Positions 30,942-62,943 of a DNA stretch of 64,000 bases are shown here, one piece after another. Position numbers and translations under genes: made by a program. Within the stretch, counting starts at the first letter, position 1, and the number at the start of each line of letters is the position of its first letter. A model generated the notes under the pieces. It did no database searches. It was not told where the DNA came from and worked only from the letters and a program-made list of their open reading frames with translations. Source of the stretch: Candidatus Heimdallarchaeota archaeon. Its GTDB lineage: Archaea; Asgardarchaeota; Heimdallarchaeia; Hodarchaeales; Hodarchaeaceae. The DNA lies in contig RDOB01000002.1 in the NCBI GenBank assembly GCA_011364965.1, forward strand, positions 288,001-352,000, given 5' to 3'.

Positions 30942-32711
30942 TTGCCAGCAAATTTATATTTTAGATCATTCGCGATACTAACTTTCCTCTGGGGATTGGT
31001 ATTTGCTTTAGGAATGGCTTTGATTTTAATAGCATCATTATCCGGAGTGATTCCTCCAGGTTATGAGTATTTAATTATCATAGCCCCTGTCCTTTTTGCA
31101 TTTATCATTGTGGGAATACAGTTTCTAATATCACCTTGGATAATGGATATTACGATCGCGTGGGTATATAAAGCAACGAAATATCCAGTTGAAGATCTCC
31201 CTCCCCATATTCGGGATTTTTTATACAACCAAATGCAAATGAACAATTTCTCGTTGAAATGGGTTGCTATCATTCATGATAACAATCCAAATGCCTTCAC
31301 TTACGGTCACACAAAGAAAAGGGCCCGTATGGCAATAACCGAGGGGATTTTGAATTACTTGGATGAATCAGAGCAGATAGCAGTTGTGGCTCATGAATGT
31401 GGTCACATAGTTCACCGTGATTTCATCTGGATGACAGTAGCGGCAGCAATCCCCTTAATTTGCTATTCTTTCTATCAGGGTCTCTGGACATTTGCTCGTG
31501 TATCTTCTCGTTCCCAACGTGGTAGCCGAGACGATGCAGCTTCTGTTGGTGCCATTGCTCTGGTCGTAGCTATACTAGCTTGGGTTGTATATTATATTTC
31601 TCATTATATAGTTTTGCTTCTTTCTCGGGTACGCGAATATTTTGCTGATTCATTCTCTGCTAATGCCACGGGTGATCCTGGAGCTCTTTCTAGGGCTTTA
31701 GTGAAGATTGCATATGGAATGGTGAAATCCGATGCAGAATTAGCTTCACGTATGAAGGATGAAGGATACTCTCCTGCTGAACAACGTCAAGCTGCAAAAC
31801 AAAGTGCTTTTAATGTTGGTATGCGTTCCCTCGGGATATTCGACGTTTCAGGTGCAAAAAGCCTTGCTATGTCGGCATATGGTCGTGGAATGGACTTGAA
31901 TGAGGAAACCGTTGCAAAAGCGGCCCAATGGGATTTATCGAACCCTTGGGGTGGATTTCTAGAACTTTCATCAACGCACCCTCTGCCAGCTAAGAGAATT
32001 CTTTCATTGAATAAAATCCAAGAGGAACGTGGATTAGCACCTGAATTTCCTGGAATTGGGAAAGTAAAATTACCTGAGAGCCTTTGGGATGAATTTTTCA
32101 TCGATTTATTTTTAATGTATATTGCTCCTTTCTTATTCTTTGCTCTTCCGCCATTTTTTTCTTTAATCATGGCTCTACTAGGATATAATCCCTTAATTGG
32201 ATTTGGAATTGGATTGCTAGTATTCGCTTTGATTTGGAAGTGGAGAAGAAATGAAAAATATCCAAAAGTAAATGATAATGATCCAACACTTACAGTTGTT
32301 CATTGTTTAACAGATCAAACAAAGAACTCATTCTATGAAGCTTCCCCATTAAGAGGAAAACCAGCTGTTTTTGAGGGTAAAGTTGTAGGGCGAGGTATAC
32401 CAGGGTTCTTCCTTAGTGAAGATTTGGTAATTCAGGACAAAACAGGGATAATTACTCTTGATTATTCTCCTATTCTAGGATTTATGTCATGGATTTTTGC
32501 TTTATTCCGTGTTCCCAAGCTACAAGGACAAATGGTTAAAGCATATGGGTGGTATCATCGCAGTCCAACTCCCATATTGTCTGTATGGAAGATTAAAACT
32601 GAAACTGGTCAAACATTCAAAAATCGTTGGTCTGGAGCCAATTGGTTATTTATGTGGATAGTTATTCTTTTGGGAATAATCTCAATAGCTTTTGGATTCT
32701 TTCCTATTTAA
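30942..32711 (+). CDS. htpX: Long-form HtpX-like M48 zinc metalloprotease
   Basis: PNAFTYG, AHECGH, SRVREYFAD, STHP; extra C-terminal TM and beta domain. Confidence 0.85.
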   Translation: MPANLYFRSFAILTFLWGLVFALGMALILIASLSGVIPPGYEYLIIIAPVLFAFIIVGIQFLISPWIMDITIAWVYKATKYPVEDLPPHIRDFLYNQMQMNNFSLKWVAIIHDNNPNAFTYGHTKKRARMAITEGILNYLDESEQIAVVAHECGHIVHRDFIWMTVAAAIPLICYSFYQGLWTFARVSSRSQRGSRDDAASVGAIALVVAILAWVVYYISHYIVLLLSRVREYFADSFSANATGDPGALSRALVKIAYGMVKSDAELASRMKDEGYSPAEQRQAAKQSAFNVGMRSLGIFDVSGAKSLAMSAYGRGMDLNEETVAKAAQWDLSNPWGGFLELSSTHPLPAKRILSLNKIQEERGLAPEFPGIGKVKLPESLWDEFFIDLFLMYIAPFLFFALPPFFSLIMALLGYNPLIGFGIGLLVFALIWKWRRNEKYPKVNDNDPTLTVVHCLTDQTKNSFYEASPLRGKPAVFEGKVVGRGIPGFFLSEDLVIQDKTGIITLDYSPILGFMSWIFALFRVPKLQGQMVKAYGWYHRSPTPILSVWKIKTETGQTFKNRWSGANWLFMWIVILLGIISIAFGFFPI

Positions 32712-50951: not shown

Positions 50952-51521
50952 CTAGCCCTGTCCTTCTTTTTTAAATCTTTCTTGCAAACGTTCAATAAAT
51001 GAATAATATTCTTCTTCAATGATGTCAAAGTAAATTAAAAGTGGTTCTAAGACCTGTGAGATGTTTTTTCCTTTTTTACTGCTTTTAATGCCTTCTGGTA
51101 ATGAATCGTATTCTCCTTTAAGTCTTTTCAAGGCTTCATGCATTTCGGATATCATTTCAGCATTTTCTGTATAATTTTTATCCAAAATACTGATAAACGA
51201 ATATACGGAGTCTTTTTTTTCTGAATATTCATATTTATCCTTACTTGTGCCCTTTTTGGGAGTTCGAACAAGAGTTCGCTTAATTACGCCCCAATCCTCA
51301 AGTGTTTTTAGATTACGACTAATCGTGGAAACTGTTACGTTTAATTTTTCAGCTAGATCTCCTTGCTTAAATATTGTATCATGTCCAAAAATAAAAACTG
51401 TAAATAATCTTCCAAGCATCGGATTCTCATTAAACTCATGCATTAAATCCTCAAGTAAGTTACTAGCCCGTTCTTGAAGTCTATCAAGCTCTTTTGAGTC
51501 TTCCTGTATACCTGAGCTCAT
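50952..51521 (-). CDS. GbsR/MarR-family transcriptional regulator
   Basis: LGRLF...DLAEKLNVTVSTISRNLKTLEDWGVI. Confidence 0.8.
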   Translation of the reverse strand: MSSGIQEDSKELDRLQERASNLLEDLMHEFNENPMLGRLFTVFIFGHDTIFKQGDLAEKLNVTVSTISRNLKTLEDWGVIKRTLVRTPKKGTSKDKYEYSEKKDSVYSFISILDKNYTENAEMISEMHEALKRLKGEYDSLPEGIKSSKKGKNISQVLEPLLIYFDIIEEEYYSFIERLQERFKKEGQG

Positions 51522-51582
51522 GGTTTTTATTCTCCAGTAAGTTATTACATAAAACTTCTATATAAATAAAATTCTTATAAAT

Positions 51583-53643
51583 TCACTCCTGCTTTGAATA
51601 TATTATCTCTGTTTCCAATTGAAAATCTCGCGAAGAGTTTCCGATCATTAAAAAAAACCTTCCTGGTTCAATCACCCAATTGTGCACTTTTGAATCGTAA
51701 AACGCCAAATTTTTGGCTTTAATTGGAATTTCTATAGTTTTTTGCTCTTTTGAATCAATATATACCTTTTGAAACCCAATTAACTCTTTAGGAGGGCGTT
51801 TAATAGAGCATTCTAGATCTTTGGCATAAACTTGGACAACTTCAGCTCCAGCTCTTTCTCCCGCATTGAAAACTTGTATTTTCAATTTTAGTTCATCATC
51901 AATGGATTTCAATATGGTTTTATCTAGAGTAACGTCTTTAAAGACAAACTTGGAATATGTTAAACCAAAACCAAAAGGGAATAAAGGTTCAATGTCAAAT
52001 CCATCGGTATAACGATAACCAATAAATATTCCTTCTTCATAATTAACTTTAAGATTTTCTCCTGGAAAGGTTTTAGGAGATTTATGCGCAGGGGAATCTG
52101 ATAACGATTTTGGAAAAGAAATCGGTAATTTTCCTGATGGATTCACGTCTCCAAATAAAATATTTGCTATTGCTCTTCCTGCATGCATGCCTGAATACCA
52201 TGCTTCAAGTACAACTGGAACATCTTCCAACCAATCATCCATTCCAATTGGACTACCGTTAATCAAGACAACAATCGTTTTGGGATTTTTCTTTGCAGTT
52301 GATTTTATGAGTTGTACTTGTGATTCTGGCAGTTCTAATCGAATTCTATCTGTTCCTTCACTATCGTTTCCAAACGGAATCACATCTTTCCTTTTATTAC
52401 GTCTAATCATACTCTGATTTGTATAATGATCCAAACCAGCAAATACTATAGCTACATCAGCGATGCTAGAGTCATTTAACAACTGAATTTTATCTTTACA
52501 CCTTTCTTTTAATCCCTGAAAAGGAGTGATTTCATAAGGAGGTTTTACAGCACTACTTCCACCTGCTAATAATTTCCCAAATTTTCTATTCAAGTTTGGA
52601 CCCAATACAGCAATTTTCGTAAGGGTAGAGAAGTTTAATGGTAATAAGCTACCAGTATTCTTTAATAAAACAATACCATCTTCTGCCATAGTTTGAGAAA
52701 GTCTTTGATGATCAGCTGTATTTCTTTTACTAGGTAATTGGATTTTCTTATTCTCAAATAATCCAACATAGGTCATAACAGTTAAAAAACGTATAATTAA
52801 TTTATTGATTTGTGAATCAGTTATTTTACCAGCTGAATATAATTGCTTTAAGAATTCTGGTTTATACTTATTTGCACTGGGCATTTCAAGAGACAGACCA
52901 GCCTCAATACAATCCTCTGGAGAGACCGGAGGATCACTACGAGCAAGGGAATACCAATCGGAAACAACAAAACCACTAAAACCCCATTTTGCCCATAAAA
53001 GATCCTCTAGCAGCTCTTTTGATTCAAAAATGTATTTCCCATTAACTTTATTGTATGAAGTCATTATCATCCATGGATTTGCTTCCAAAATTGTTTCCCT
53101 AAATGCACGAAGATAGATTTCATGGAGAGTTCTTTCGTCAATTTCAGCACTTATAGTAAAGCGATTCGTTTCTTGGTTGTTCGCGACATAGTGTTTTATA
53201 CATGCTGCGACTTTCTGACTCTGAACGCCTTTGACATAAGAAACCGCCAACTCCTTTGTTAAGAATGGATCTTCACTGAAATATTCAAAAGTTCTTCCAT
53301 TTAAAGGAGATCGATCAATATTGATACTGGGAGCGAGAATTGCATGTCTCCCAACTGCTCTTGCTTCCTCTCCAGCTGCTTTGCCGTATTCTTTAGCAAG
53401 ATCTGGATTCCATGTGGCAGCAAGACAAATACCACCCGGAAATCTCGTATTTTTTCGAAAAAAGCTTGAGTGCATAGATATACCGAAAGGTCCATCTGTC
53501 ATTCTAAAGCGTTTGATACCCAATCGTTTAATGGGATTTGTGTCAAAAAATCGGCTCCCAGAACATAATTTGATTTTTTCATCTAATGTTAATTGATTGA
53601 GTAAGTCATTAATATGTTTCTGTTGTTCATTTGATAGTTTCAT
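51583..53643 (-). CDS. GH3 beta-glucosidase (BglX-like, Fn3 C-terminus)
   Basis: TDGP, GRTFEYFSEDP, KHYVAN, VVSDW nucleophile, PSGKLP, YEEGIFIGYR. Confidence 0.93.
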   Translation of the reverse strand: MKLSNEQQKHINDLLNQLTLDEKIKLCSGSRFFDTNPIKRLGIKRFRMTDGPFGISMHSSFFRKNTRFPGGICLAATWNPDLAKEYGKAAGEEARAVGRHAILAPSINIDRSPLNGRTFEYFSEDPFLTKELAVSYVKGVQSQKVAACIKHYVANNQETNRFTISAEIDERTLHEIYLRAFRETILEANPWMIMTSYNKVNGKYIFESKELLEDLLWAKWGFSGFVVSDWYSLARSDPPVSPEDCIEAGLSLEMPSANKYKPEFLKQLYSAGKITDSQINKLIIRFLTVMTYVGLFENKKIQLPSKRNTADHQRLSQTMAEDGIVLLKNTGSLLPLNFSTLTKIAVLGPNLNRKFGKLLAGGSSAVKPPYEITPFQGLKERCKDKIQLLNDSSIADVAIVFAGLDHYTNQSMIRRNKRKDVIPFGNDSEGTDRIRLELPESQVQLIKSTAKKNPKTIVVLINGSPIGMDDWLEDVPVVLEAWYSGMHAGRAIANILFGDVNPSGKLPISFPKSLSDSPAHKSPKTFPGENLKVNYEEGIFIGYRYTDGFDIEPLFPFGFGLTYSKFVFKDVTLDKTILKSIDDELKLKIQVFNAGERAGAEVVQVYAKDLECSIKRPPKELIGFQKVYIDSKEQKTIEIPIKAKNLAFYDSKVHNWVIEPGRFFLMIGNSSRDFQLETEIIYSKQE

Positions 53644-53982: not shown

Positions 53983-56727
53983 ATGAAACAATATTGGCAC
54001 GCAAAATCTTTGAATTCGGTTATTGATCTTTTGGAAACAGATGATGAACGTGGTCTTTCCTCCTCTGAGGCTCTAAAACGACTCGAGACGTACGGACCTA
54101 ATGAATTAGAAAAAACTAAGAAGAAACATCCAATTTTTTTATTTTTAGACCAATTTACTGATCCCTTAGTTATCATACTTCTAGTTGCATTGGTAATTAG
54201 TGTGACGATTGGCGTTTTTTCCCCTCATGAGGAAGATAAGCTTGAATATTTCGTTGATGCAGTAGCTATTACAGTTATTGTACTCTTTAATGCCTTATTT
54301 GGTTTCATACAAGAATATAAAGCCGAGAAATCAATCGAAGCATTAAAATCAATGGCTGCTCCATTTACTACAGTTGTAAGAGATGGCAAAAAGGACAGAA
54401 TAGAAGCGAGATTTCTCGTGCCTGGAGATATTATTCAAATAGAAGAAGGTGACAAAGTTCCAGCAGATGCTCGCCTTATCCAAGCCCATTCTCTTAGAGT
54501 AGATGAATCTATGTTAACTGGTGAATCTTTTCCAGTAGCAAAAGAAAGAAATGCTGTATTACCAGAAAATGCATCAATTGCAGACATACGTAATACTATC
54601 TTTAGTGGTACAAATATCACAAGAGGACGAAGCTTAGCTGTGGTTATTCAAACTGGAATGAATACTGAATTTGGAAAAATTGCAAAGGGATTGATGGATG
54701 AAGATACTGAAGAAACTCCGTTGCAAAAACGACTCAAAGTACTGGGAAAATGGATTGGAATTGCAAGTCTTTCTATTTGTGCCATTATTTTCGCAATTGG
54801 GGTTATCTTAAGCCAAAATATAATCGATATGTTTATTGTTGCTGTTGGTTTAGCGGTTGCTGCGGTTCCTGAAGGATTACCAGCCGTTGTTACTCTCGCT
54901 TTAGCCCTTGGTGTTCAAAGAATGAGTCAGAAAAATGCTATTATTCGTCGTTTACCCTCCGTTGAAACCTTGGGATCAACAACTGTAATTTGCTCTGATA
55001 AAACTGGGACATTAACTCGAAATGAAATGACCGGAAGAAAGATACTCACTGTTGATGAAGAATTATCTATAAGCTCAAGCATGAAGATAAACGAGGCAGT
55101 AGAAAAGATTTTAGCAGTTGCTATAGAGTGCAATAATGCTCAACTTAAATCTAATGATTTCAAGAATGAGATAGACATTGGTGATCCAACTGAAATTGCT
55201 TTATTACGTGTAGCTAAGAAACTGGATTTTTCCACGAATTTTGAGCGGCTTTACGAAATTCCTTTTGATAGTAATTCCAAACGTATGAGTGTAGTGGTAA
55301 AAAATCCCTCTAAAAAATATTTTGTGTTCACAAAAGGAGCTCCTGACGTATTGCTTCAGATATGTGAAAACTATTATTCAAAAGGAGAAATTATGCCTTT
55401 AAATGAAAATGTTCGTCAAAATTTGGAAAAATCTGAACAGCTTCTTGCTGAAAGAGGGTATAGGATGTTAGGGATGGCGTTCAAAGAGGCATCTAAAGAA
55501 AAAGTTGAAATTTCTATTTTTTCGGAAGATACTGAACAAATAGAATCTAATTTAACTTATCTTGGAGCTATCGCGATTATGGATCCACCCCGTGAGGGAA
55601 CAAAGGAATCTATTGAGACTTGCAAGGTAGCAGGTATTCGTCCAGTCATGATTACTGGAGATCATATGAAAACTGCCCTTGCAGTGGCAAATGAAATTGG
55701 TTTGGTCGAGGATATTGATACTAAATATTCTATGGAAGGAAGTGACCTTGCTCTATTATCTGATAAAGAACTAAGAGATGCTGTAAAAACAGTGAGAGTT
55801 TTTGCTAGAGTATCTCCTGAACATAAATTAAAGTTAGTATCAGCTTTCAAAGCAAATAATCACATTGTTGCGATGACTGGTGATGGAGTTAATGATGCCC
55901 CCGCTTTAAAGAAAGCAGATATTGGAATATCTATGGGAATTTCAGGTACCGATGTATCAAAGGAAGCTTCTGATATGGTATTAGCTGATGATGATTTTTC
56001 AACAATCGTTGGAGCAATTCTTGAAGGAAGAACAATATATGATAATATGAGAAAATTCATTCTTTACTTATTATCCTGTAATGCAGGGGAAATCGCAGCT
56101 ATGTTTATCGGAATCATGATCACATCCATTTTATTCGGAGCTCCTGTATTACCTTTACTTGCGATACAAATATTATGGGTTAATCTTGCAACTGATGGAC
56201 TTCCTGCTCTCGCCTTGGGTGTAGACCCTCCTGATTCTGATGTAATGATAAGAAAACCACGAGATCCAGATGAATCAATACTTACTAAAAAGGCCTTTTA
56301 CTTTATTCTATATTCTGGAATCTTAATTGGCGTTGGCACGTTATTCATATTCTTTTGGTATCTTACTTTTTCTACTGCCACAACTGAAATCGAAAGGATT
56401 ATGGAAGCTCGAACGGCAGCATTTACATTACTAGTAACCTTCCAGATGATTATGGCATTAAATATTCGTAAAGAGGAGCACTCACTCTTTGGCAAGGAAT
56501 TTATCCGTAATCCATACCTGCTTTTAGCAATTATCAGTTCAATGTTTTTCCATAGCTTAATACTATATTTACCGTTGTTAAATCCGATCTTTGAAACGGT
56601 ACCTTTAAGTCTAACAGATTGGTTATTTGTTCTCATTATTGGGAGTACTCTAATTTTTATAGATGAAAGTCGTACATTTTTATCAAAAAGAGTTCCAGCT
56701 TTGAAAAGTATTGCTGGTTATTGGTAG
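53983..56727 (+). CDS. Ca2+-transporting P-type ATPase (P2A, SERCA-like)
   Basis: TGES, AAVPEGL, CSDKTGT, KGAP, TGDGVND, M5 SCNAGE, M6 NLATDG. Confidence 0.93.
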   Translation: MKQYWHAKSLNSVIDLLETDDERGLSSSEALKRLETYGPNELEKTKKKHPIFLFLDQFTDPLVIILLVALVISVTIGVFSPHEEDKLEYFVDAVAITVIVLFNALFGFIQEYKAEKSIEALKSMAAPFTTVVRDGKKDRIEARFLVPGDIIQIEEGDKVPADARLIQAHSLRVDESMLTGESFPVAKERNAVLPENASIADIRNTIFSGTNITRGRSLAVVIQTGMNTEFGKIAKGLMDEDTEETPLQKRLKVLGKWIGIASLSICAIIFAIGVILSQNIIDMFIVAVGLAVAAVPEGLPAVVTLALALGVQRMSQKNAIIRRLPSVETLGSTTVICSDKTGTLTRNEMTGRKILTVDEELSISSSMKINEAVEKILAVAIECNNAQLKSNDFKNEIDIGDPTEIALLRVAKKLDFSTNFERLYEIPFDSNSKRMSVVVKNPSKKYFVFTKGAPDVLLQICENYYSKGEIMPLNENVRQNLEKSEQLLAERGYRMLGMAFKEASKEKVEISIFSEDTEQIESNLTYLGAIAIMDPPREGTKESIETCKVAGIRPVMITGDHMKTALAVANEIGLVEDIDTKYSMEGSDLALLSDKELRDAVKTVRVFARVSPEHKLKLVSAFKANNHIVAMTGDGVNDAPALKKADIGISMGISGTDVSKEASDMVLADDDFSTIVGAILEGRTIYDNMRKFILYLLSCNAGEIAAMFIGIMITSILFGAPVLPLLAIQILWVNLATDGLPALALGVDPPDSDVMIRKPRDPDESILTKKAFYFILYSGILIGVGTLFIFFWYLTFSTATTEIERIMEARTAAFTLLVTFQMIMALNIRKEEHSLFGKEFIRNPYLLLAIISSMFFHSLILYLPLLNPIFETVPLSLTDWLFVLIIGSTLIFIDESRTFLSKRVPALKSIAGYW

Positions 56728-56881
56728 AGTTTCCAAAAAGAATCCCAGACATGTATAAAAAGAATAATTAATCATAATAGTTCATAGCAATAAGCAAGGT
56801 TTAATAAAAAAGAAGGAACTTCACCTTAAAAAGAAATAATCGTCTTTAAATAATTACCGAGAGTGGAATAGAGGACATATA

Positions 56882-58360
56882 ATGGTATCTATGACTCGGA
56901 TCAAAATTTCAAGGGTTTTTAATGCAGCCACTTTCTTCATTTTCACCTTTATCCAGATGATATTTGTTTCATGGATTTCAATAAGCCAAACTTATAAAGA
57001 ATCAGCCTTTCCACCAATTAAAGTTCTCGGTTTTTATGTTGCATTCAATCCTTTCGCTGATTTACGTTTCACTGCCTTTCTGGTTCTTTTAACGGCTGGA
57101 TTGCAAGTTTTACTACTTGCCTTACTTGTGAATATTGTTTTCTCTAATAAGAATATGGTTCAAATCTACCCTGAACCCCTTTATGGTCCTGCATATGCTC
57201 CTGAGGAAGCGCCGTTAGTCGATAGAACTCTTGGTCTTGTTCAACGCGTTGCGAGCAAAGCTCGTATAAAAGTAACAAAAGTATTCGTTTATCGTAAAGC
57301 AGTTCCAAATGCTTTTAGCTTAGATTTATTACCTATCCCAATTTTTAGAAAACCTTACTTAGTATTAAACACAAATGTATTAGAAATCTTAAATGATAAG
57401 GAAATTGAATCTGTAATTGCACATGAACTTGCTCATGTTAAAAATGGTGATAGTTTTATTCGATTAGTTCTTTCAATACCTAGACTTTTTCTTAATCTTG
57501 CTTATCTTTTTATTTACCTTCAGATTCTTACTGGAATTCTTGATGCTGTCTTTGACTCATTGGATATAGGAGCAGCTGTTGAACGTTTAATCTTCCTAGG
57601 ACTGATATATATCTTTATTGCTTTTATCACAAAATTCACAGTGCATTTTTTGTTTGCAGCTAATCATAAAGCAGAATTTCTTGCTGATTATTTTGCTGCC
57701 ACTCTAGTTGGCTCCGATATCCTCATAAATTCACTGATCCATTTGGGCCAACGCAGTGAAGCGATGCAGGTTCTGAATCGTGAAATAGAATGGCTTCAGG
57801 GCTTATCGGGAGAAAAAAAACTTTCAACTACGTTATTGAGAAATATTTACCAAAAATTTCCTAAAACTCAGCTCGATGAAGATATTGCAAGAGAAACAGC
57901 TCCAAAATTGTTCTTAGAAGAGAAATTGGAGGAATTAGTTTTTTTCTATGGAATTGAATTGGATAGGCAAATTCGAAATCAGCTTATTGAGCGCGCTGTC
58001 CCCTCGCTTTTGGAAAAAAGAGAGCAATATTACGATACGCTCAAAGATGAAGAATCAGACATCAAACCTAGTATATTAAAAGAAAAGACTATCGACTGGC
58101 GAAGATTCGATGCTGATAAGAACCAATACCTAGAAGAGGATGAAATTGAATCTTTGATTTTTACATTACTCGCGCAACCAGATAAAATGGTTTTTGAACA
58201 TGAACTTTTCCAAGGAACAGAAAAAGATCAGGATCACCCAGGTTTCCGTGTACGGATCCTAAAAATTTTCCAAGTATTTCATCCTGATAAATATGAACAA
58301 ATTGAATCTCAAATTCTCCAACAAGCTGAAAAGCAAGTTATATTAGAAAATCCAGTTTAA
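56882..58360 (+). CDS. M48 membrane zinc metalloprotease with inserted domain containing an EF-hand-like loop
   Basis: PNAF, AHELAH, AEFLAD, DHP; insert carries FDADKNQYLEEDE. Confidence 0.82.
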   Translation: MVSMTRIKISRVFNAATFFIFTFIQMIFVSWISISQTYKESAFPPIKVLGFYVAFNPFADLRFTAFLVLLTAGLQVLLLALLVNIVFSNKNMVQIYPEPLYGPAYAPEEAPLVDRTLGLVQRVASKARIKVTKVFVYRKAVPNAFSLDLLPIPIFRKPYLVLNTNVLEILNDKEIESVIAHELAHVKNGDSFIRLVLSIPRLFLNLAYLFIYLQILTGILDAVFDSLDIGAAVERLIFLGLIYIFIAFITKFTVHFLFAANHKAEFLADYFAATLVGSDILINSLIHLGQRSEAMQVLNREIEWLQGLSGEKKLSTTLLRNIYQKFPKTQLDEDIARETAPKLFLEEKLEELVFFYGIELDRQIRNQLIERAVPSLLEKREQYYDTLKDEESDIKPSILKEKTIDWRRFDADKNQYLEEDEIESLIFTLLAQPDKMVFEHELFQGTEKDQDHPGFRVRILKIFQVFHPDKYEQIESQILQQAEKQVILENPV

Positions 58361-59382
58361 TCAAATAGAACTCTTTCTAACATTAAGGGGATATTTCTTT
58401 CATTAGATGGCAGATAGAACAATTTAATATTAGGAAGTTTCCGTAGTTTGCCAAATAAAGGAGTAGTTAATTGCAAAGCTTGCCTTTTAGGAGTAATTAT
58501 AATTCTAACGTCTTGCATTTTGCTTAAAAGTGGAATAAAATCGAATCCTGTTGTAGCTAGCAAATCCGATATTAAAACAAGCGTTTTTTTACGAGAAATG
58601 ACTTTTTTAAACTCTTTATTAGTTGCTTTCAAAGCTGTATAAATATTGGTCTTTCCTCCAGAACGAATATTAATCAGCTTTTGAATGATTTCCTCACTGG
58701 TCATGAAGTGATCTGAATAGCTTTTTAAAATCCTTGGATCTGTATCAAATCCAATTATGGCCATATCACGGATATCCATGATCATGGAAAAAAGAATTGA
58801 GGCCAAGATGATTAATCTTAGATGGGTCAATACCGAATGGCTATGATCAATTAAAAGGATGACACTCTTCTCCTTCCGTTTTCTTTCATAGCATATTACA
58901 TGTTTATACATGAAATATGGGTCACCTGATCCTAGGTAATTCGCTATCGTGTGTTCAAGATGCCAAGACTTGCCTGGAACATAAGGGACCTTTCTGGGGT
59001 ATTTAGATCGGTCAATAGATTTTAATATCCTTTCTGCATGCCGAAATAATTTAGGGATTATAAGAGAGATTAGAACTTGTTTTTCATGTTCGGGAAAAAA
59101 TTCTTTTATCTGAAAAATTAAAGATGTCGATTCAAGTATAAATTCAGCGCTGGAAAAGTCTAATTGAAGAACTTCAGCAACTGCCCGTGGATGTTTTTCC
59201 GCAATTACTTCAATTGCTCTTAAATTTCTACTTGTAATGGCCTTCTTTGTAAATTCTAACGCAGAATTTTCATCTAGTTTTTGTCTTAAATCGAACTCGT
59301 ATATTCGTTCTAGAAGCATGATATCTAGGCCGTTAGAGGATTGTATTGAGATAGATGCGGGACTAATGTCCCGCTTTATCAA
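58357..59382 (-). CDS. VWA-domain protein (CoxE/ViaA-like MoxR partner)
   Basis: MIDAS DHSHS, GGKTN, LISD. Confidence 0.85.
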   Translation of the reverse strand: MIKRDISPASISIQSSNGLDIMLLERIYEFDLRQKLDENSALEFTKKAITSRNLRAIEVIAEKHPRAVAEVLQLDFSSAEFILESTSLIFQIKEFFPEHEKQVLISLIIPKLFRHAERILKSIDRSKYPRKVPYVPGKSWHLEHTIANYLGSGDPYFMYKHVICYERKRKEKSVILLIDHSHSVLTHLRLIILASILFSMIMDIRDMAIIGFDTDPRILKSYSDHFMTSEEIIQKLINIRSGGKTNIYTALKATNKEFKKVISRKKTLVLISDLLATTGFDFIPLLSKMQDVRIIITPKRQALQLTTPLFGKLRKLPNIKLFYLPSNERNIPLMLERVLFD

Positions 59383-60230
59383 TTTTTTGAAATATTTGGG
59401 AAAAAAACTGATTCTGCTATTTCAAAAAGGCATTCTTCAATGGTTTTATCAATATCTGGATGTAATTTTACCTTACCTGAATATACAGAATAAATAGCAG
59501 CAAGAAATGTATCACGAGATTTCGGTAAATCCTTTAAAAGATTAGTCAATTGAATAGCGGCCCTAATACTCGCTCCAGAGTCAAAATTGGTATTTTTTCT
59601 TGTTTTCTCTGTGAATTCAACTACCTTCTGTATCAAAGGAAGATCTTTACATCCAGTCCTTAATTTCACAATATCTTCAGCTTCTCCCCCTGATTTATGA
59701 AATAATCTAATGAGAATACATCGATCAAAAAATGCTTCTGGAAGTGGATTTGTTCCTACATATTCAGAAGGATTTAGGGTAAAGATCGAATAAAAATGGT
59801 CATGAGCTTTAACTTCTCCATATTGCGGGATAAAGATATTCCTTTCGTCCATTGCTGCCAGAACTCCGTTCATACTTTCGCTAGGAGCTCTATTTACCTC
59901 ATTGAAGAAAAATAACCCACCGTTGTTCATTGCGTTTGTTAATGGGCCGTGAATAAAGCTTTTCTCGGTGAAACCAAGTTTCATAACTAATGGCGGATCA
60001 AACCATCCCCGACAATGAGTTATGGTTAGATTTTCATCCCCATCTACCCTATAAAAAGGTCTTTTTAATGCTTTAGCGACTGTTTTAGCTAATTCCGTTT
60101 TCCCCGTTCCTGATTCTCCTTCGATTACGACAGGAATATGGTTATTAATTGCTGCTAGTATTATTTTGATTTCCGAATTGAGGCCTAAGAGATTTTTTGC
60201 ACATTCTTGTATAATTAAATCGAAATTCAT
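59379..60230 (-). CDS. MoxR-family AAA+ ATPase
   Basis: GESGTGKT Walker A, FFNEVNRA Walker B variant, TLNP, LPEAFFDR. Confidence 0.9.
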   Translation of the reverse strand: MNFDLIIQECAKNLLGLNSEIKIILAAINNHIPVVIEGESGTGKTELAKTVAKALKRPFYRVDGDENLTITHCRGWFDPPLVMKLGFTEKSFIHGPLTNAMNNGGLFFFNEVNRAPSESMNGVLAAMDERNIFIPQYGEVKAHDHFYSIFTLNPSEYVGTNPLPEAFFDRCILIRLFHKSGGEAEDIVKLRTGCKDLPLIQKVVEFTEKTRKNTNFDSGASIRAAIQLTNLLKDLPKSRDTFLAAIYSVYSGKVKLHPDIDKTIEECLFEIAESVFFPNISKN

Positions 60231-60275
60231 ATTCTTTAACCTTAAAAATCGGTATAAGAAGATTCTTAGAGTGTT

Positions 60276-62216
60276 TCAAATCTCAATTAGAACTTTTGTT
60301 AAAGTAACTTTTCCAGTATCTTCATCAAAAGTTAACCAACCTTCTTCCTCTAATTCTTTAACTAATCGTGCTGCAAATACAAGTTGAATAGCAACTGACT
60401 TTGCTAATTCAGTTATAGAAGCTTGTTGAACTTCTTGTAATACAAATAAAAGGGCATATTTTGGATTTTTTGCTAGATTAATTTTGAGAGTTTCGACAGC
60501 TGATTGAAGATTTTCCGATTTTGATTCCAATCGCATTTTTTCTTTTTCTAGGAGATTCATTACATTATTCTTATCATTCAATGCTGTTTCGACTTCTTTC
60601 AGTCTTTTTTCTAGTCTTTTATTCTCAGCATTTGAATTATCAAGATGAGACTGAAGACTTTGAATCTGTGTTGCGAAATCGTCACGTTCTCGTTCTATTT
60701 GAGACTGGAATGCTATTGATTCAGTTGCTTCCTTTGCAATTTCAGTTTGTCTTTGTCTAAATAGCTCTAAATCTTTACGAGATTCTTCTAGTTCTCTATT
60801 CTTTAATTGTAATTGGTTCTCAAAATCCGTGATTATTGATTTCTGCTTTTCGAAAGAAATATTCAAATTGGCTAATTCATCTCTCAGTTGATTTCTATCC
60901 TCTTCCAAGGAGGTAATCCTCTCATCTTTCCCCATCAGGGATTTTGTTTTATCCTCCAATTGCATTTGAATAGAACGTTTTTCTCTTTTAAGATTCTCGG
61001 AAATTTCCTCGTGTTCTTTTTGCTGGAGGCTGAGTTTTTCAATTTCTGCTGATAAATCGGAATTTTGTTGTTTAATTCTTGATAATTCTCGTTTAAAGTC
61101 CTCTATTTCCTTCTGTATAGCTAATTTTTCTTCTTTCAGAGATGCAACATATTCTGTGAGATCTTGGGAACCTTTTTCTCTAGCCTCTACTTTCAAAGAT
61201 AGTTCTCGAACTTCATCCTCCTTTCTTTCCAAGACCTTTTTGGTATCATCTAATTCTTCCCTAAGTGTGACTGCTTGCTGACTAGTTTCTGCAGAATCCA
61301 ATAATAAATCCTCATTTTCCTCCTCGAGTTGTTTTATACGTTCAGATAATTCATCATTAACATTTATTAAATTACTCATATCAGTATTAAGCTGTTTAAG
61401 TTGACTTTTAAGAGAATTAAGGTCTTCTTTGAACTTTTCTTTTTGAATATTGATTACCTGAAGATTTTCCTCTCTAATTGATTCTATCTCAAGGCGCAGC
61501 TTTTCATTAGCTTCTTTCAGTTTAATATTGTCTTCTGCACTACTTGTGAGAACTTGAACTTCCGCTTTCAAGTTTTCTATTTCCATATCGCGATCTCCCA
61601 AAACACTTTGCAATTCCTCAACCTCAAGACGAGTTGACACAAGTGCATTTCCCACAGTTTCAAATTCAGCGTCCATTTTTTCTCTATCATGTCGGGCTTG
61701 CTTCGCTTCTCGTAATGCTTGATCTAATTCTTCCTGAAGCCTATTAATATTTTCAAGTTGATCTTCTACTTTATCAGAGCTAATACCAGACTGATTTTGC
61801 AATTTTGCAATTATTCCTTCTTTTTCTTGTAATTGAATCTGAAGATCATCTAGTTGAAGTTGAATTGGTTCAATCTCCGCTGCTCTTCTTCTCCATTCGT
61901 CTATTTCATTTTTTAATTGATCGAGCTCGTCGTGAGTAACGACTATTGCTCCGCTGGAGTCGAGTTCTTCTATATTATCAACACCTTTTAACCCGATTTT
62001 GGAAAATTCCGTGTGAGCTTCCTTATTGAACGATTGCATTTTCCTTTTAAATGTTTCAATCAAAGCCTCAATTTCTGTAAGGGAATAATGCATTTTAGGG
62101 TTTCTTTGTAGATTCTGGACTATTGATTTCGCTTCAGAAGAAATCTCACGCTCTAATCGACGTTCTTGCTCTGCAATATTTTGAATAAATACTAATTTTG
62201 GGTTTTTTCTAGACAA
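60276..62216 (-). CDS. Long coiled-coil protein with C-terminal winged helix
   Basis: About 480 aa of heptads; C-terminal SITELAKSV...LVKELEEEGWLTFD. Confidence 0.75.
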   Translation of the reverse strand: MSRKNPKLVFIQNIAEQERRLEREISSEAKSIVQNLQRNPKMHYSLTEIEALIETFKRKMQSFNKEAHTEFSKIGLKGVDNIEELDSSGAIVVTHDELDQLKNEIDEWRRRAAEIEPIQLQLDDLQIQLQEKEGIIAKLQNQSGISSDKVEDQLENINRLQEELDQALREAKQARHDREKMDAEFETVGNALVSTRLEVEELQSVLGDRDMEIENLKAEVQVLTSSAEDNIKLKEANEKLRLEIESIREENLQVINIQKEKFKEDLNSLKSQLKQLNTDMSNLINVNDELSERIKQLEEENEDLLLDSAETSQQAVTLREELDDTKKVLERKEDEVRELSLKVEAREKGSQDLTEYVASLKEEKLAIQKEIEDFKRELSRIKQQNSDLSAEIEKLSLQQKEHEEISENLKREKRSIQMQLEDKTKSLMGKDERITSLEEDRNQLRDELANLNISFEKQKSIITDFENQLQLKNRELEESRKDLELFRQRQTEIAKEATESIAFQSQIERERDDFATQIQSLQSHLDNSNAENKRLEKRLKEVETALNDKNNVMNLLEKEKMRLESKSENLQSAVETLKINLAKNPKYALLFVLQEVQQASITELAKSVAIQLVFAARLVKELEEEGWLTFDEDTGKVTLTKVLIEI

Positions 62217-62346
62217 GATTGATTTTCGCCCCTAGATTACTTATTCGCCTCGGTTGGATAAAAACTTCTTTCACTCTCTACTTTGGAGTATTCAGAATTT
62301 TGCTAATTGTTGAGACATTCTAGTTTGGATCAAGTTATATTTTTTG

Positions 62347-62943
62347 TTACTCTTCTTCTTCTTCTAGAGTATCAAGTTTTAGGTGTTGAAGATTCTGAGT
62401 TAATGATCCAATCTCCTTATCAAATTGTTGGAAACGTCCTTGATATAAGTTGTTTAATGCAAGATCAAGATGAGATGTTTTACTTTCTGGTTCATATCCA
62501 ACTATTGTCAATAATTTAAAATTTTGTTGTTGCGTGTCTTTTAAAAATTTTGGTAAAGAATTTAAATCTTTGTTAACTGCTTCAAGAACCTTTAAAGCAC
62601 TCTTTTCACCTGTTGTGAGATTTTGTGTGAATGATTCGACTTGAGGTAGTAGAACTGTCCTCAATTGATATCTTACTTCATCCTTTGAGATATTCTTATC
62701 AGATGCAAGATTTTCAGCCCATTCCAATATTGTTTCAAAGTTGCGAATGCTGTTCTTTTCAAGTTTGATCCAATTAAGTAATGTCTCCAGAGCGTCCTCG
62801 ACAGTTACGAGTTGTTTATATAGCTCATCTCTATTTTCAAGTGCATAATCCCGTAGATCCTCTAAAATTTTAAATAATTCGATTGAGCTATGTTGATATT
62901 CTGTTTTATTGGGTTTTTCCTCGGTATCTGGTGTCATTTCCAT
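62347..62943 (-). CDS. Hypothetical all-helical protein
   Basis: 198-aa open frame, helical L/E/K composition; GGGAG RBS. Confidence 0.6.
   Translation of the reverse strand: MEMTPDTEEKPNKTEYQHSSIELFKILEDLRDYALENRDELYKQLVTVEDALETLLNWIKLEKNSIRNFETILEWAENLASDKNISKDEVRYQLRTVLLPQVESFTQNLTTGEKSALKVLEAVNKDLNSLPKFLKDTQQQNFKLLTIVGYEPESKTSHLDLALNNLYQGRFQQFDKEIGSLTQNLQHLKLDTLEEEEE

What the first reader, a model, noticed from the sequence alone, without database searches (positions are those of the whole stretch)
53983..58360. SERCA-like Ca2+ pump next to an EF-hand-bearing M48 membrane protease: candidate calcium-regulated proteolysis module
Seen: the P2A ATPase retains Ca-ligand motifs (M4 PEGL, M5 N..E, M6 N..TD; M8 Glu appears as Gln). 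The next co-oriented gene is an M48 protease with a ~150-aa insert between the third Zn ligand (EFLAD) and the HP motif. The insert contains helix-F-DADKNQYLEEDE-helix (58109-58144), matching EF-hand positions D1, D3, N5, hydrophobic 8 and E12, with Gln instead of Gly at 6. Inference: a Ca2+-gated membrane protease linked to Ca2+ export, i.e. a possible archaeal calcium-signalling unit. I know of no characterised M48-EF-hand fusion.
Basis: partly seen in the sequence, partly recalled or inferred. Interest (0 to 1): 0.75.

Follow-up and report, generated by a model that had tools for sequence, protein, structure and literature searches.

The report
Asgard membrane protease with built-in EF-hand
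An Asgard archaeon encodes an HtpX-like zinc membrane protease whose catalytic domain carries a conserved EF-hand calcium-binding loop, so calcium may control it, but its position beside a calcium pump looks like inherited gene order and not a dedicated pump-protease unit.

Summary
Window 53983-56727 encodes a P2A Ca2+-ATPase. It keeps the SERCA ligands N768, E771, N796, T799 and D800, and has Gln at E908. Window 56882-58360 encodes a 492-aa M48 protease (HEXXH, EXXXD). About 160 aa are inserted before its catalytic His/Arg motif, and the loop DADKNQYLEEDE lies at 58109-58144.

This is an Asgard-restricted M48 subfamily, found in 99 of 400 Asgard genomes (Hodarchaeales, other Heimdallarchaeia, Thorarchaeota). 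At 26-37% identity, loop positions 1, 8 and 12 are as invariant as the zinc ligands. A family profile of the 61-aa region finds almost only solved EF-hand proteins (calbindin, best single stretch i-E 3e-5). Caveats:
- position 6 is never Gly;
- no partner hand was found;
- Pfam's EF-hand models stay below cut-off;
- fold searches of the insert were uninformative.

The "module" reading is not supported. The pump is adjacent only in one Hodarchaeales genus-level clade, where the whole ~15-kb block is collinear. It is absent in a sister family and in 20 of 20 distant loci.

Best reading: a Ca2+-modulated HtpX-like protease, with the sensor inserted at the position of BlaR1's regulatory loop. Calcium binding itself is untested. 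I found no published description.

The parts
53983..56727 (+). P2A-type Ca2+-ATPase (914 aa), related to SPCA, LMCA1 and SERCA. SERCA site ligands are kept except E908, which is Gln.
56728..56881 (+). 154-bp AT-rich spacer between pump and protease. It holds a TATA-like TTTAAATA at 56845-56852, about 30 bp before the protease ATG. No T-run terminator is obvious.
   Evidence: The promoter role is inferred from sequence only.
56882..58360 (+). HtpX-like M48 zinc metalloprotease (492 aa) with four predicted membrane helices (about 15-35, 62-88, 194-222, 235-259). The catalytic domain and the insert are predicted to be cytoplasmic.
57422..57436 (+). HEXXH zinc-binding and catalytic motif (H181, E182, H185).
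   Evidence: Invariant in alignments A1 and A4.
57674..57688 (+). EXXXD gluzincin motif (E265 is the third zinc ligand; D269).
   Evidence: Invariant. Motif definition from PMC9834060.
57752..58228 (+). Family-specific insert of about 160 aa (residues 291-449), between the helix that follows the E265 helix and the His/Arg motif. It is mostly helical and contains the conserved FP[KR]TQLNED..ARE.AP..FLE block.
58067..58174 (+). EF-hand-like unit (residues 396-431): short entering helices, a 12-residue loop and an exit helix.
58109..58144 (+). EF-hand loop DADKNQYLEEDE (D410 to E421).
58235..58255 (+). H452-P453 and R456/R458 of the DHPxFRxR motif. These are the likely equivalents of thermolysin His231 (transition state) and of the Arg that pairs with the EXXXD Asp.
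   Evidence: H452, P453 and R458 are invariant; R456 is invariant only among the close homologues. The roles are inferred from PMC9834060.

Best explanation
P0002 belongs to an Asgard-restricted subfamily of HtpX-like M48 membrane zinc proteases. The cytoplasmic catalytic domain is interrupted by a helical insert of about 160 aa. The insert lies between the helix after the third zinc ligand (E265, EXXXD) and the segment that carries the catalytic His452 and Arg458. About 30 residues before His452 it holds a single EF-hand-type loop: D410, D412, N414, the Y416 carbonyl, E418 and a bidentate E421.

Proposed mechanism (inferred): a rise in cytoplasmic Ca2+ orders this loop and its exit helix. That repositions the insert or the His/Arg segment, or drives pairing of two protomers through their lone EF-hands. 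The result is a change in substrate access or in catalytic competence.

The upstream P2A ATPase is a genuine Ca2+-pump candidate, but its adjacency is lineage-specific inherited synteny. It is not a conserved functional unit.

Shown: protease family and fold, the insert and its position, conservation of the loop, sequence similarity to solved EF-hands, and the distribution of the adjacency.
Inferred: Ca2+ binding, the topology, and any regulatory effect.
For: Protease identity:
- Pfam M48 is above cut-off.
- VIA-align on the AF2 model (pLDDT 80) gives ZMPSTE24 Z 11.1 (218 aligned, rmsd 4.7), the HtpX domain 3cqb Z 10.1 (97 of 101, rmsd 2.8), Ste24p Z 10.0 and BlaR1 Z 9.8. All of the top 14 rows are M48/M56 peptidases.

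Loop conservation:
- In 42 close homologues (60-88% identity): D1 42/42, D/N3 42/42, S/N5 42/42, L8 42/42, E/D9 42/42, E12 42/42. Positions 2, 4, 6, 7, 10 and 11 vary.
- In 22 diverse members (26-37% identity) the invariant columns include H181, E182, H185, E265, D269, H452, P453 and R458, and also D410, L417 and E421.
- In 120 Thorarchaeota-type homologues the loop reads DYDGDRRLSxxE[LI]: D1 120/120, D/N3 120/120, D/N5 120/120, L8 118, S9 119, E12 120. PS00018 is matched by 114 of 120.

Homology to EF-hands:
- The 61-aa family profile against PDB gives calbindin D28k E 3e-15 (best single stretch i-E 3.2e-5) and secretagogin E 3e-10. Thirty-six of 39 hits at E<10 are EF-hand-type calcium-binding proteins.
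- The insert profile against 1.84 billion representatives finds about 58 proteins with the length and match position of the subfamily (not individually checked), plus multi-EF-hand proteins that match only profile positions ~118-150 (10 of 10 confirmed by Pfam).

Structure: in both AF2 models the exit helix starts at loop position 10, as in canonical EF-hands.

Topology: K+R minus D+E is +3.4 for the N-terminus, and -1.6 and -2.1 for the two short loops. This puts the catalytic domain and the insert in the cytoplasm, as in BlaR1.

Position of the insert: it is the same alpha8-alpha9 connection that forms BlaR1's regulatory autocleavage loop and that carries the thermolysin His231 equivalent in ZMPSTE24.

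Adjacency not functional.
Against: - Position 6 of the loop is never Gly in any member (Q, Y, R, K, S, L or F). Gly is there in most functional EF-hands (own knowledge), so affinity or geometry may be unusual.
- No second EF-hand is detectable, and the model's short beta-bridge (T403 with M436) is not the canonical loop-loop bridge.
- The entering helix is only one or two turns in the model (pLDDT 71-77).
- Pfam EF-hand_7 scores 13 bits against a cut-off of 30 for this protein. EF-hand models reach E<=0.01 in only 3 of 22 diverse members.
- Foldseek and VIA-align on the insert alone found no EF-hand fold.
- This genome has no other recognisable EF-hand protein, so no wider Ca2+-signalling set is evident.
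- No experiment on any member was found.
Confidence: 0.5

Rival explanations
1. The loop binds Ca2+ (or Mg2+) all the time as a structural site that stabilises the large insert, as the calcium sites of thermolysin-type proteases do. It has no signalling role.
For: Structural Ca2+ sites are common in metalloproteases (own knowledge). The lone, unpaired hand without Gly6 is not typical of sensors. No other EF-hand proteins are present in this genome.
Against: The predicted location is cytoplasmic, where free Ca2+ is normally too low to fill a weak site. E at position 12 is invariant, which is the bidentate ligand typical of Ca2+-selective EF-hands. The insert occupies a regulatory position of the fold.
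Confidence: 0.22
2. One reading: the Ca2+-ATPase and the EF-hand protease form a co-regulated calcium-signalling module, with the protease acting on or with the pump.
For: Same strand, adjacent in 21 of 21 genomes of the clade at 60-70% protein identity. Both proteins plausibly handle Ca2+.
Against: The whole ~15-kb neighbourhood is equally collinear in the 16 clade genomes examined. The adjacency is absent in the sister family and in 20 of 20 distant loci that keep the EF-hand. The 154-bp spacer has its own TATA-like box. The distant loci instead share a Ras-family GTPase, an MFS transporter and TldD/PmbA genes.
Confidence: 0.1
3. The motif is a pseudo-EF-hand that no longer binds metal. It is conserved because it packs against the protease core or contacts a partner or substrate.
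For: Gly6 is absent throughout. The entering helix is unusual. Invariant neighbours (TIDWR, FEHE) form a small alpha/beta unit in the model. Pfam scores are below threshold.
Against: Pseudo-EF-hands usually lose their acidic ligands. Here every ligand position keeps an oxygen-donor side chain in all 184 sequences examined (42 close, 22 diverse, 120 Thorarchaeota-type), while non-ligand positions vary freely.
Confidence: 0.15

Closest known systems
HtpX (M48B) membrane-protein quality-control protease of bacteria and archaea
   Same: HEXXH and EXXXD motifs, the C-terminal HP...R motif, a 2+2 transmembrane layout and a cytoplasm-facing active site. The best NCBIfam hits are HtpX models. The solved HtpX domain 3cqb aligns with Z 10.1 and 28% identity.
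   Different: All HtpX equivalog models score far below their cut-offs (57 bits against 245). The protein is about 200 aa longer because of the insert before the HP...R motif. The same genome also holds a canonical 298-aa M48.
BlaR1/MecR1 (M56) sensor proteases
   Same: Gluzincin membrane proteases in which the alpha8-alpha9 connection next to the active site is the regulatory element, the autocleavage loop (PMC9834060). BlaR1 aligns with Z 9.8, and a weak Pfam M56 match is present.
   Different: BlaR1 senses through an extracellular penicillin-binding domain and through autocleavage. Here the candidate sensor is an EF-hand inside the cytoplasmic loop itself.
ZMPSTE24/Ste24p (M48A)
   Same: Best structural matches (Z 10-11). 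The catalytic His that is equivalent to thermolysin His231 lies in the same connection.
   Different: Seven-helix chamber architecture and CAAX/prelamin substrates. No EF-hand.
EF-hand proteins of the calbindin D28k/secretagogin type, and parvalbumin CD-site loops
   Same: The stretch from W-R-x-[FY]-D through the loop to E-[IL]-x-x-F-[IL] aligns over about 32 residues with calbindin EF-hands. The ligand pattern D, D, S/N, E, E resembles parvalbumin's CD loop (own knowledge).
   Different: A single hand with no Gly at position 6, embedded in a protease. A 30-residue similarity cannot show specific kinship with the eukaryotic hexa-EF-hand family.
Calpains (Ca2+-activated proteases with EF-hand domains)
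   Same: The same logic, a protease joined to an EF-hand sensor in the cytoplasm.
   Different: Calpains are soluble cysteine proteases with a five-EF-hand domain. There is no homology, only an analogy.

Membership tests
Peptidase family M48 (gluzincin membrane proteases) | HEXXH zinc-binding motif | tested here: met
   H181-E182-x-x-H185, invariant in A1 and A4.
Peptidase family M48 (gluzincin membrane proteases) | Third zinc ligand Glu in an EXXXD motif | tested here: met
   E265-F-L-A-D269, invariant. Motif as defined in PMC9834060.
Peptidase family M48 (gluzincin membrane proteases) | Pfam PF01435 above its gathering score | tested here: met
   49.3 bits against 20.3, although only profile positions 11-153 of 186 align.
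Peptidase family M48 (gluzincin membrane proteases) | Fold similarity to solved M48/M56 structures | tested here: met
   ZMPSTE24 Z 11.1, HtpX domain Z 10.1, Ste24p Z 10.0, BlaR1 Z 9.8. Foldseek E-values were only 5e-3 and weaker.
HtpX equivalog (NCBIfam) | Score above the curated equivalog cut-off | tested here: not met
   Best is 56.7 bits against a cut-off of 245. The protein is HtpX-like but not an HtpX orthologue.
EF-hand | 12-residue loop with oxygen ligands at positions 1, 3, 5, 9 and 12, and a hydrophobic residue at 8 | tested here: met
   D410, D412, N414, L417, E418 and E421. Conserved in 42 close, 22 diverse and 120 Thorarchaeota-type sequences.
EF-hand | Gly at loop position 6 | tested here: not met
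   Never Gly. The residue is Q, Y, R, S, L or F in the close set and mostly R in the Thorarchaeota set. PROSITE PS00018 tolerates Q, R and K.
EF-hand | Flanking entering and exit helices | tested here: inconclusive
   The exit helix 419-431 starts at loop position 10. The entering side is two short helices, 396-402 and 406-408. pLDDT is 71-90.
EF-hand | Pairing with a second EF-hand | tested here: inconclusive
   No second loop is recognisable in the sequence or in the profile hits. Homodimeric pairing could not be modelled.
EF-hand | Pfam EF-hand model above its gathering score | tested here: not met
   EF-hand_7 gives 13 bits against 30 for this protein. EF-hand families reach E<=0.01 in only 3 of 22 diverse members.
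EF-hand | Significant profile similarity to solved EF-hand proteins | tested here: met
   Calbindin, best single stretch i-E 3.2e-5. Thirty-six of 39 hits are EF-hand-type calcium-binding proteins. The reverse check gave 10 of 10.
EF-hand | Ca2+ binding | not testable with these tools
   Needs ITC, Tb3+ luminescence or a structure with the ion.
P2A Ca2+-ATPase (SERCA/SPCA/LMCA1 group) | P-type core motifs (DKTGT, TGES, PEGL) and family-model scores | tested here: met
   The motifs are visible in the translation. TIGR01116 scores 722 against 703; the PMR1-type model scores 764 against 798, just below. PDB: SPCA1 6e-175, LMCA1 2e-174, SERCA2 1e-169.
P2A Ca2+-ATPase (SERCA/SPCA/LMCA1 group) | Transmembrane Ca2+ ligands of SERCA sites I and II | tested here: met
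   N768, E771, N796, T799 and D800 align identically, and E309 lies in PEGL. E908 is Gln, so site I is altered.
Conserved pump-protease gene module | Adjacency kept across lineages independently of the surrounding synteny | tested here: not met
   Adjacent only in clade g1, inside a collinear block. Absent in G022 and in 20 of 20 distant loci.

The most novel reading that the evidence does not exclude
Asgard archaea (Hodarchaeales, other Heimdallarchaeia and Thorarchaeota) have a cytoplasmic Ca2+-switched membrane protease. An EF-hand inserted in the regulatory loop of an HtpX-like enzyme turns Ca2+ influx, for example after membrane damage, into proteolysis. This would be an archaeal counterpart of the calpain logic. 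It would also be evidence that EF-hand-based Ca2+ sensing existed in the archaeal lineage leading to eukaryotes, and was not purely imported from bacteria.
Probability: 0.3. Interest if true: 0.8.

Novelty: new variant of a known kind. Interest (0 to 1): 0.58.

Why it matters
Calcium signalling is a hallmark of eukaryotes. Its key EF-hand components have been argued to come from bacteria, with no comparable prokaryotic system (PMC7016017).

Here a sensor-like EF-hand is conserved as tightly as the zinc ligands. It sits at a regulatory position of a membrane protease, across several Asgard lineages including the Hodarchaeales. All sources annotate these proteins only as M48/HtpX.

The case is concrete and cheap to test: does Ca2+ control an archaeal enzyme? 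If it does, this would be a rare example of second-messenger-type Ca2+ regulation in archaea, and a new way of regulating M48 proteases.

The negative result also matters. Gene adjacency inside a slowly rearranging clade should not be read as an operon.

Tried and rejected
- Foldseek against PDB with the insert-only AF2 model (pLDDT 77): best E 0.57. A few EF-hand-containing entries (secretagogin, Cbl TKB, calpain-13 domain IV, plant NADPH oxidase) appear at E 2-3, which is not significant.
- VIA-align wide search with the same model: best Z 5.7, dominated by the long helices 1-105. The EF-hand part was barely tested, so this is uninformative.
- ESM Atlas with residues 390-445: scores 0.75-0.82. 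One cluster had 27% EF-hand_5. This is within the noise range.
- Pfam on the single protein: EF-hand_7 only at E 0.13.
- Literature searches (Asgard + EF-hand + calcium; HtpX + EF-hand; M48 + EF-hand + metalloprotease; archaea + EF-hand + calcium signalling): no description of this fusion.
- The genome-contig scan retrieved only the close Hodarchaeales family, so names for the distant clades came from one protein search.
- The idea that calbindin-type similarity shows specific kinship with eukaryotic hexa-EF-hand proteins was considered. It was set aside as untestable on 30 residues.
- G023's copy lies at a contig edge, so its upstream neighbour is unknown.


Full report
**What is in the window.** Two co-oriented ORFs fill the stretch: 53983-56727 (914 aa, P0001) and 56882-58360 (492 aa, P0002), separated by 154 bp. 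Named homologues come from Hodarchaeales, Hodarchaeota, Heimdallarchaeota or Promethearchaeota MAGs, so this is an Asgard archaeon.

**The pump.**
- P0001 has all the Pfam P-type ATPase domains.
- It passes the NCBIfam SERCA-type model (722 bits, cut-off 703) and falls just short of the PMR1-type model (764 bits, cut-off 798).
- Its nearest solved relatives are SPCA1 (6e-175), Listeria LMCA1 (2e-174) and SERCA2/1 (1e-169 and 1e-165). "P2A ATPase" is therefore more accurate than "SERCA-like".
- The HMMER alignment to SERCA1a shows N768, E771, N796, T799 and D800 conserved and E908 replaced by Gln. PEGL, DKTGT and TGES are present.
- The genome holds three further P2-type ATPase paralogues.

**The protease.**
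- P0002 matches Pfam Peptidase_M48 (E 6.8e-13), but only over profile positions 11-153 of 186.
- NCBIfam HtpX equivalogs score far below their cut-offs.
- An AF2 model built on 42 homologues (pLDDT 80) aligns best to ZMPSTE24 (Z 11.1), the HtpX soluble domain 3cqb (Z 10.1, 28% identity), Ste24p (Z 10.0), BlaR1 (Z 9.8) and BepA (Z 8.5). Foldseek E-values were weak, 5e-3 at best.
- Landmarks are HEXXH (H181-H185), EXXXD (E265-D269) and DHPxFRxR (D451-R458). About 160 residues (291-449) separate the helix that follows the E265 helix from the His/Arg motif. In ordinary M48 enzymes these two elements lie close together in the sequence.
- The BlaR1 paper states that the thermolysin His231 equivalent lies in the alpha8-alpha9 connection in ZMPSTE24. 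It also states that this connection is BlaR1's regulatory autocleavage loop, and that an Arg on alpha9 pairs with the EXXXD Asp (PMC9834060). The Asgard insert occupies that same connection, with H452 and R458 directly after it.
- Charge counts across the 42 homologues put the catalytic domain and the insert in the cytoplasm: N-terminus +3.4, the two short loops -1.6 and -2.1.

**Is the loop more than chance?** The loop DADKNQYLEEDE is residues 410-421, at 58109-58144. It fits PROSITE PS00018. That alone means little. The genome's 2176 long ORFs contain 7 PS00018 matches, against 1-5 in shuffled proteomes. Conservation carries the argument.
- In 42 homologues of 60-88% identity, positions 1 (D), 8 (L) and 12 (E) are invariant. 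Position 3 is D or N, position 5 is S or N, and position 9 is E or D. Positions 2, 4, 6, 7, 10 and 11 vary freely. W at -4 and F at -1 are invariant.
- Two members of a sister family (37-43% identity) keep the ligands.
- A profile of the insert finds it in 99 of 400 Asgard genomes. These include nearly all of the window's order, three other families of its class, and 63 of 89 genomes of a family in another class. A named identical protein shows that family to be Thorarchaeota. Several large families gave no match with this query.
- In 22 diverse members (26-37% identity) the invariant columns include the zinc ligands, D269, H452, P453 and R458, and also D410, L417 and E421.
- In 120 Thorarchaeota-type proteins the loop reads DYDGDRRLSxxE[LI], with D1, D/N3, D/N5 and E12 in 120 of 120. 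PS00018 is matched by 114 of 120.

**Homology to EF-hands.**
- A profile of the 61-residue region was searched against all PDB sequences. It returned calbindin D28k (E 3e-15; best single stretch i-E 3.2e-5; about 32 residues aligned, from W-R-x-Y-D through the exit helix) and secretagogin (3e-10).
- Below these came calmodulins, CaBPs, CIB1, CBL4, frequenin, oncomodulin, troponin C, calpain, ALG-2 and recoverin. Thirty-six of the 39 hits at E<10 are EF-hand-type calcium-binding proteins.
- The whole-insert profile against 1.84 billion representatives gave 72 hits. About 58 have the length and match position of the subfamily (not individually checked). Most of the rest are proteins that match only profile positions ~118-150. 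Ten of ten that I checked are multi-EF-hand proteins by Pfam.
- Both AF2 models place the start of the exit helix at loop position 10, as in canonical hands.

**What speaks against a textbook EF-hand.**
- Position 6 is never Gly.
- No partner hand is visible.
- The entering helix is short and broken in the model. The model's beta-bridge joins T403 to M436 and does not join two loops.
- Pfam EF-hand models stay under threshold for this protein, and reach E<=0.01 in only 3 of 22 diverse members.
- Fold searches with the insert alone were uninformative.
- The genome has no other recognisable EF-hand protein.

**The module idea.**
- The orthologous pump lies directly upstream, on the same strand, in all 21 genomes of the window's genus-level clade.
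- In the 16 of those genomes that I fetched, the whole block is equally collinear: DRG-like GTPase, pump, protease, VWA, MoxR-like AAA, coiled-coil/wHTH protein, a 198-aa ORF and HypF_C.
- In the sister family (G022) the neighbours are an MFS transporter and an ORF that looks primase-like by eye; neither was scanned.
- None of 20 distant loci has a P-type ATPase within 8 kb.
- Those distant loci share other neighbours: a Ras-family GTPase just upstream on the same strand (13 of 20), a convergent MFS gene (11), TldD/PmbA genes (12) and a thioredoxin (14).
- The spacer in the window has a TATA-like TTTAAATA about 30 bp before the protease ATG.
- The adjacency is therefore best read as inherited gene order.

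**Verdict.** The protease is a new variant of a known kind. It is an HtpX-like M48 enzyme, restricted to Asgard archaea, with an EF-hand-type loop built into the regulatory connection of its catalytic domain. My estimates:
- about 0.5 for Ca2+ modulation of activity;
- about 0.22 for a purely structural site;
- about 0.15 for a non-binding pseudo-hand;
- about 0.1 for a dedicated pump-protease unit.

No publication describing this fusion was found in the held library. All sources annotate these proteins as M48/HtpX only.

Noticed in passing
L036-L055 (distant Asgard loci), e.g. L036:2048-2590 (-): In Thorarchaeota-type loci a Ras-family small GTPase (Pfam Ras, E 7e-39) sits 10-77 bp upstream of the EF-hand M48 gene on the same strand in several genomes. 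It is nearby in 13 of 20 loci. This is a possible functional partner and is worth its own look.
   Followed up: partly
L037:4202-5581 (-) and paralogues in 12 of 20 distant loci: TldD/PmbA-type metallopeptidase genes, mostly as pairs, lie next to the EF-hand M48 gene in both the Thorarchaeota loci and a second Heimdallarchaeia family. A proteolysis-related neighbourhood is therefore conserved across classes, unlike the pump.
   Followed up: partly
window 30942-32711 (+): A second M48 paralogue (589 aa; Pfam M48 E 2.6e-28 over residues 106-358) has a C-terminal extension of about 230 aa with no Pfam match. The genome has six M48 genes in all, including a canonical 298-aa form on another contig.
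   Followed up: partly
window 58357-62943 (-): Convergent with the protease is a VWA / MoxR-like AAA / 646-aa coiled-coil plus wHTH / 198-aa ORF gene string. The VWA stop overlaps the protease stop by 4 bp. The string is collinear in all 16 related genomes examined, although the 198-aa ORF gave no match in the truncated locus L071 (15 of 16).
   Followed up: partly
window 50952-53643 (-): A MarR/HTH gene and a GH3 glycoside hydrolase lie between the DRG-like GTPase and the pump. Neither is found at this position in any of the 16 related genomes, so this is a lineage-specific insertion into an otherwise collinear block.
   Followed up: no
G000 contigs C8 (about 812-920, +) and C15 (about 124645, -): Large ORFs (807 and 2219 aa) carry DxDxDG-type repeats such as DTDNDGLLDGFE and DSDRDGLLDGAE. 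These look like thrombospondin-type-3 or other extracellular calcium-binding repeats, not EF-hands.
   Followed up: no
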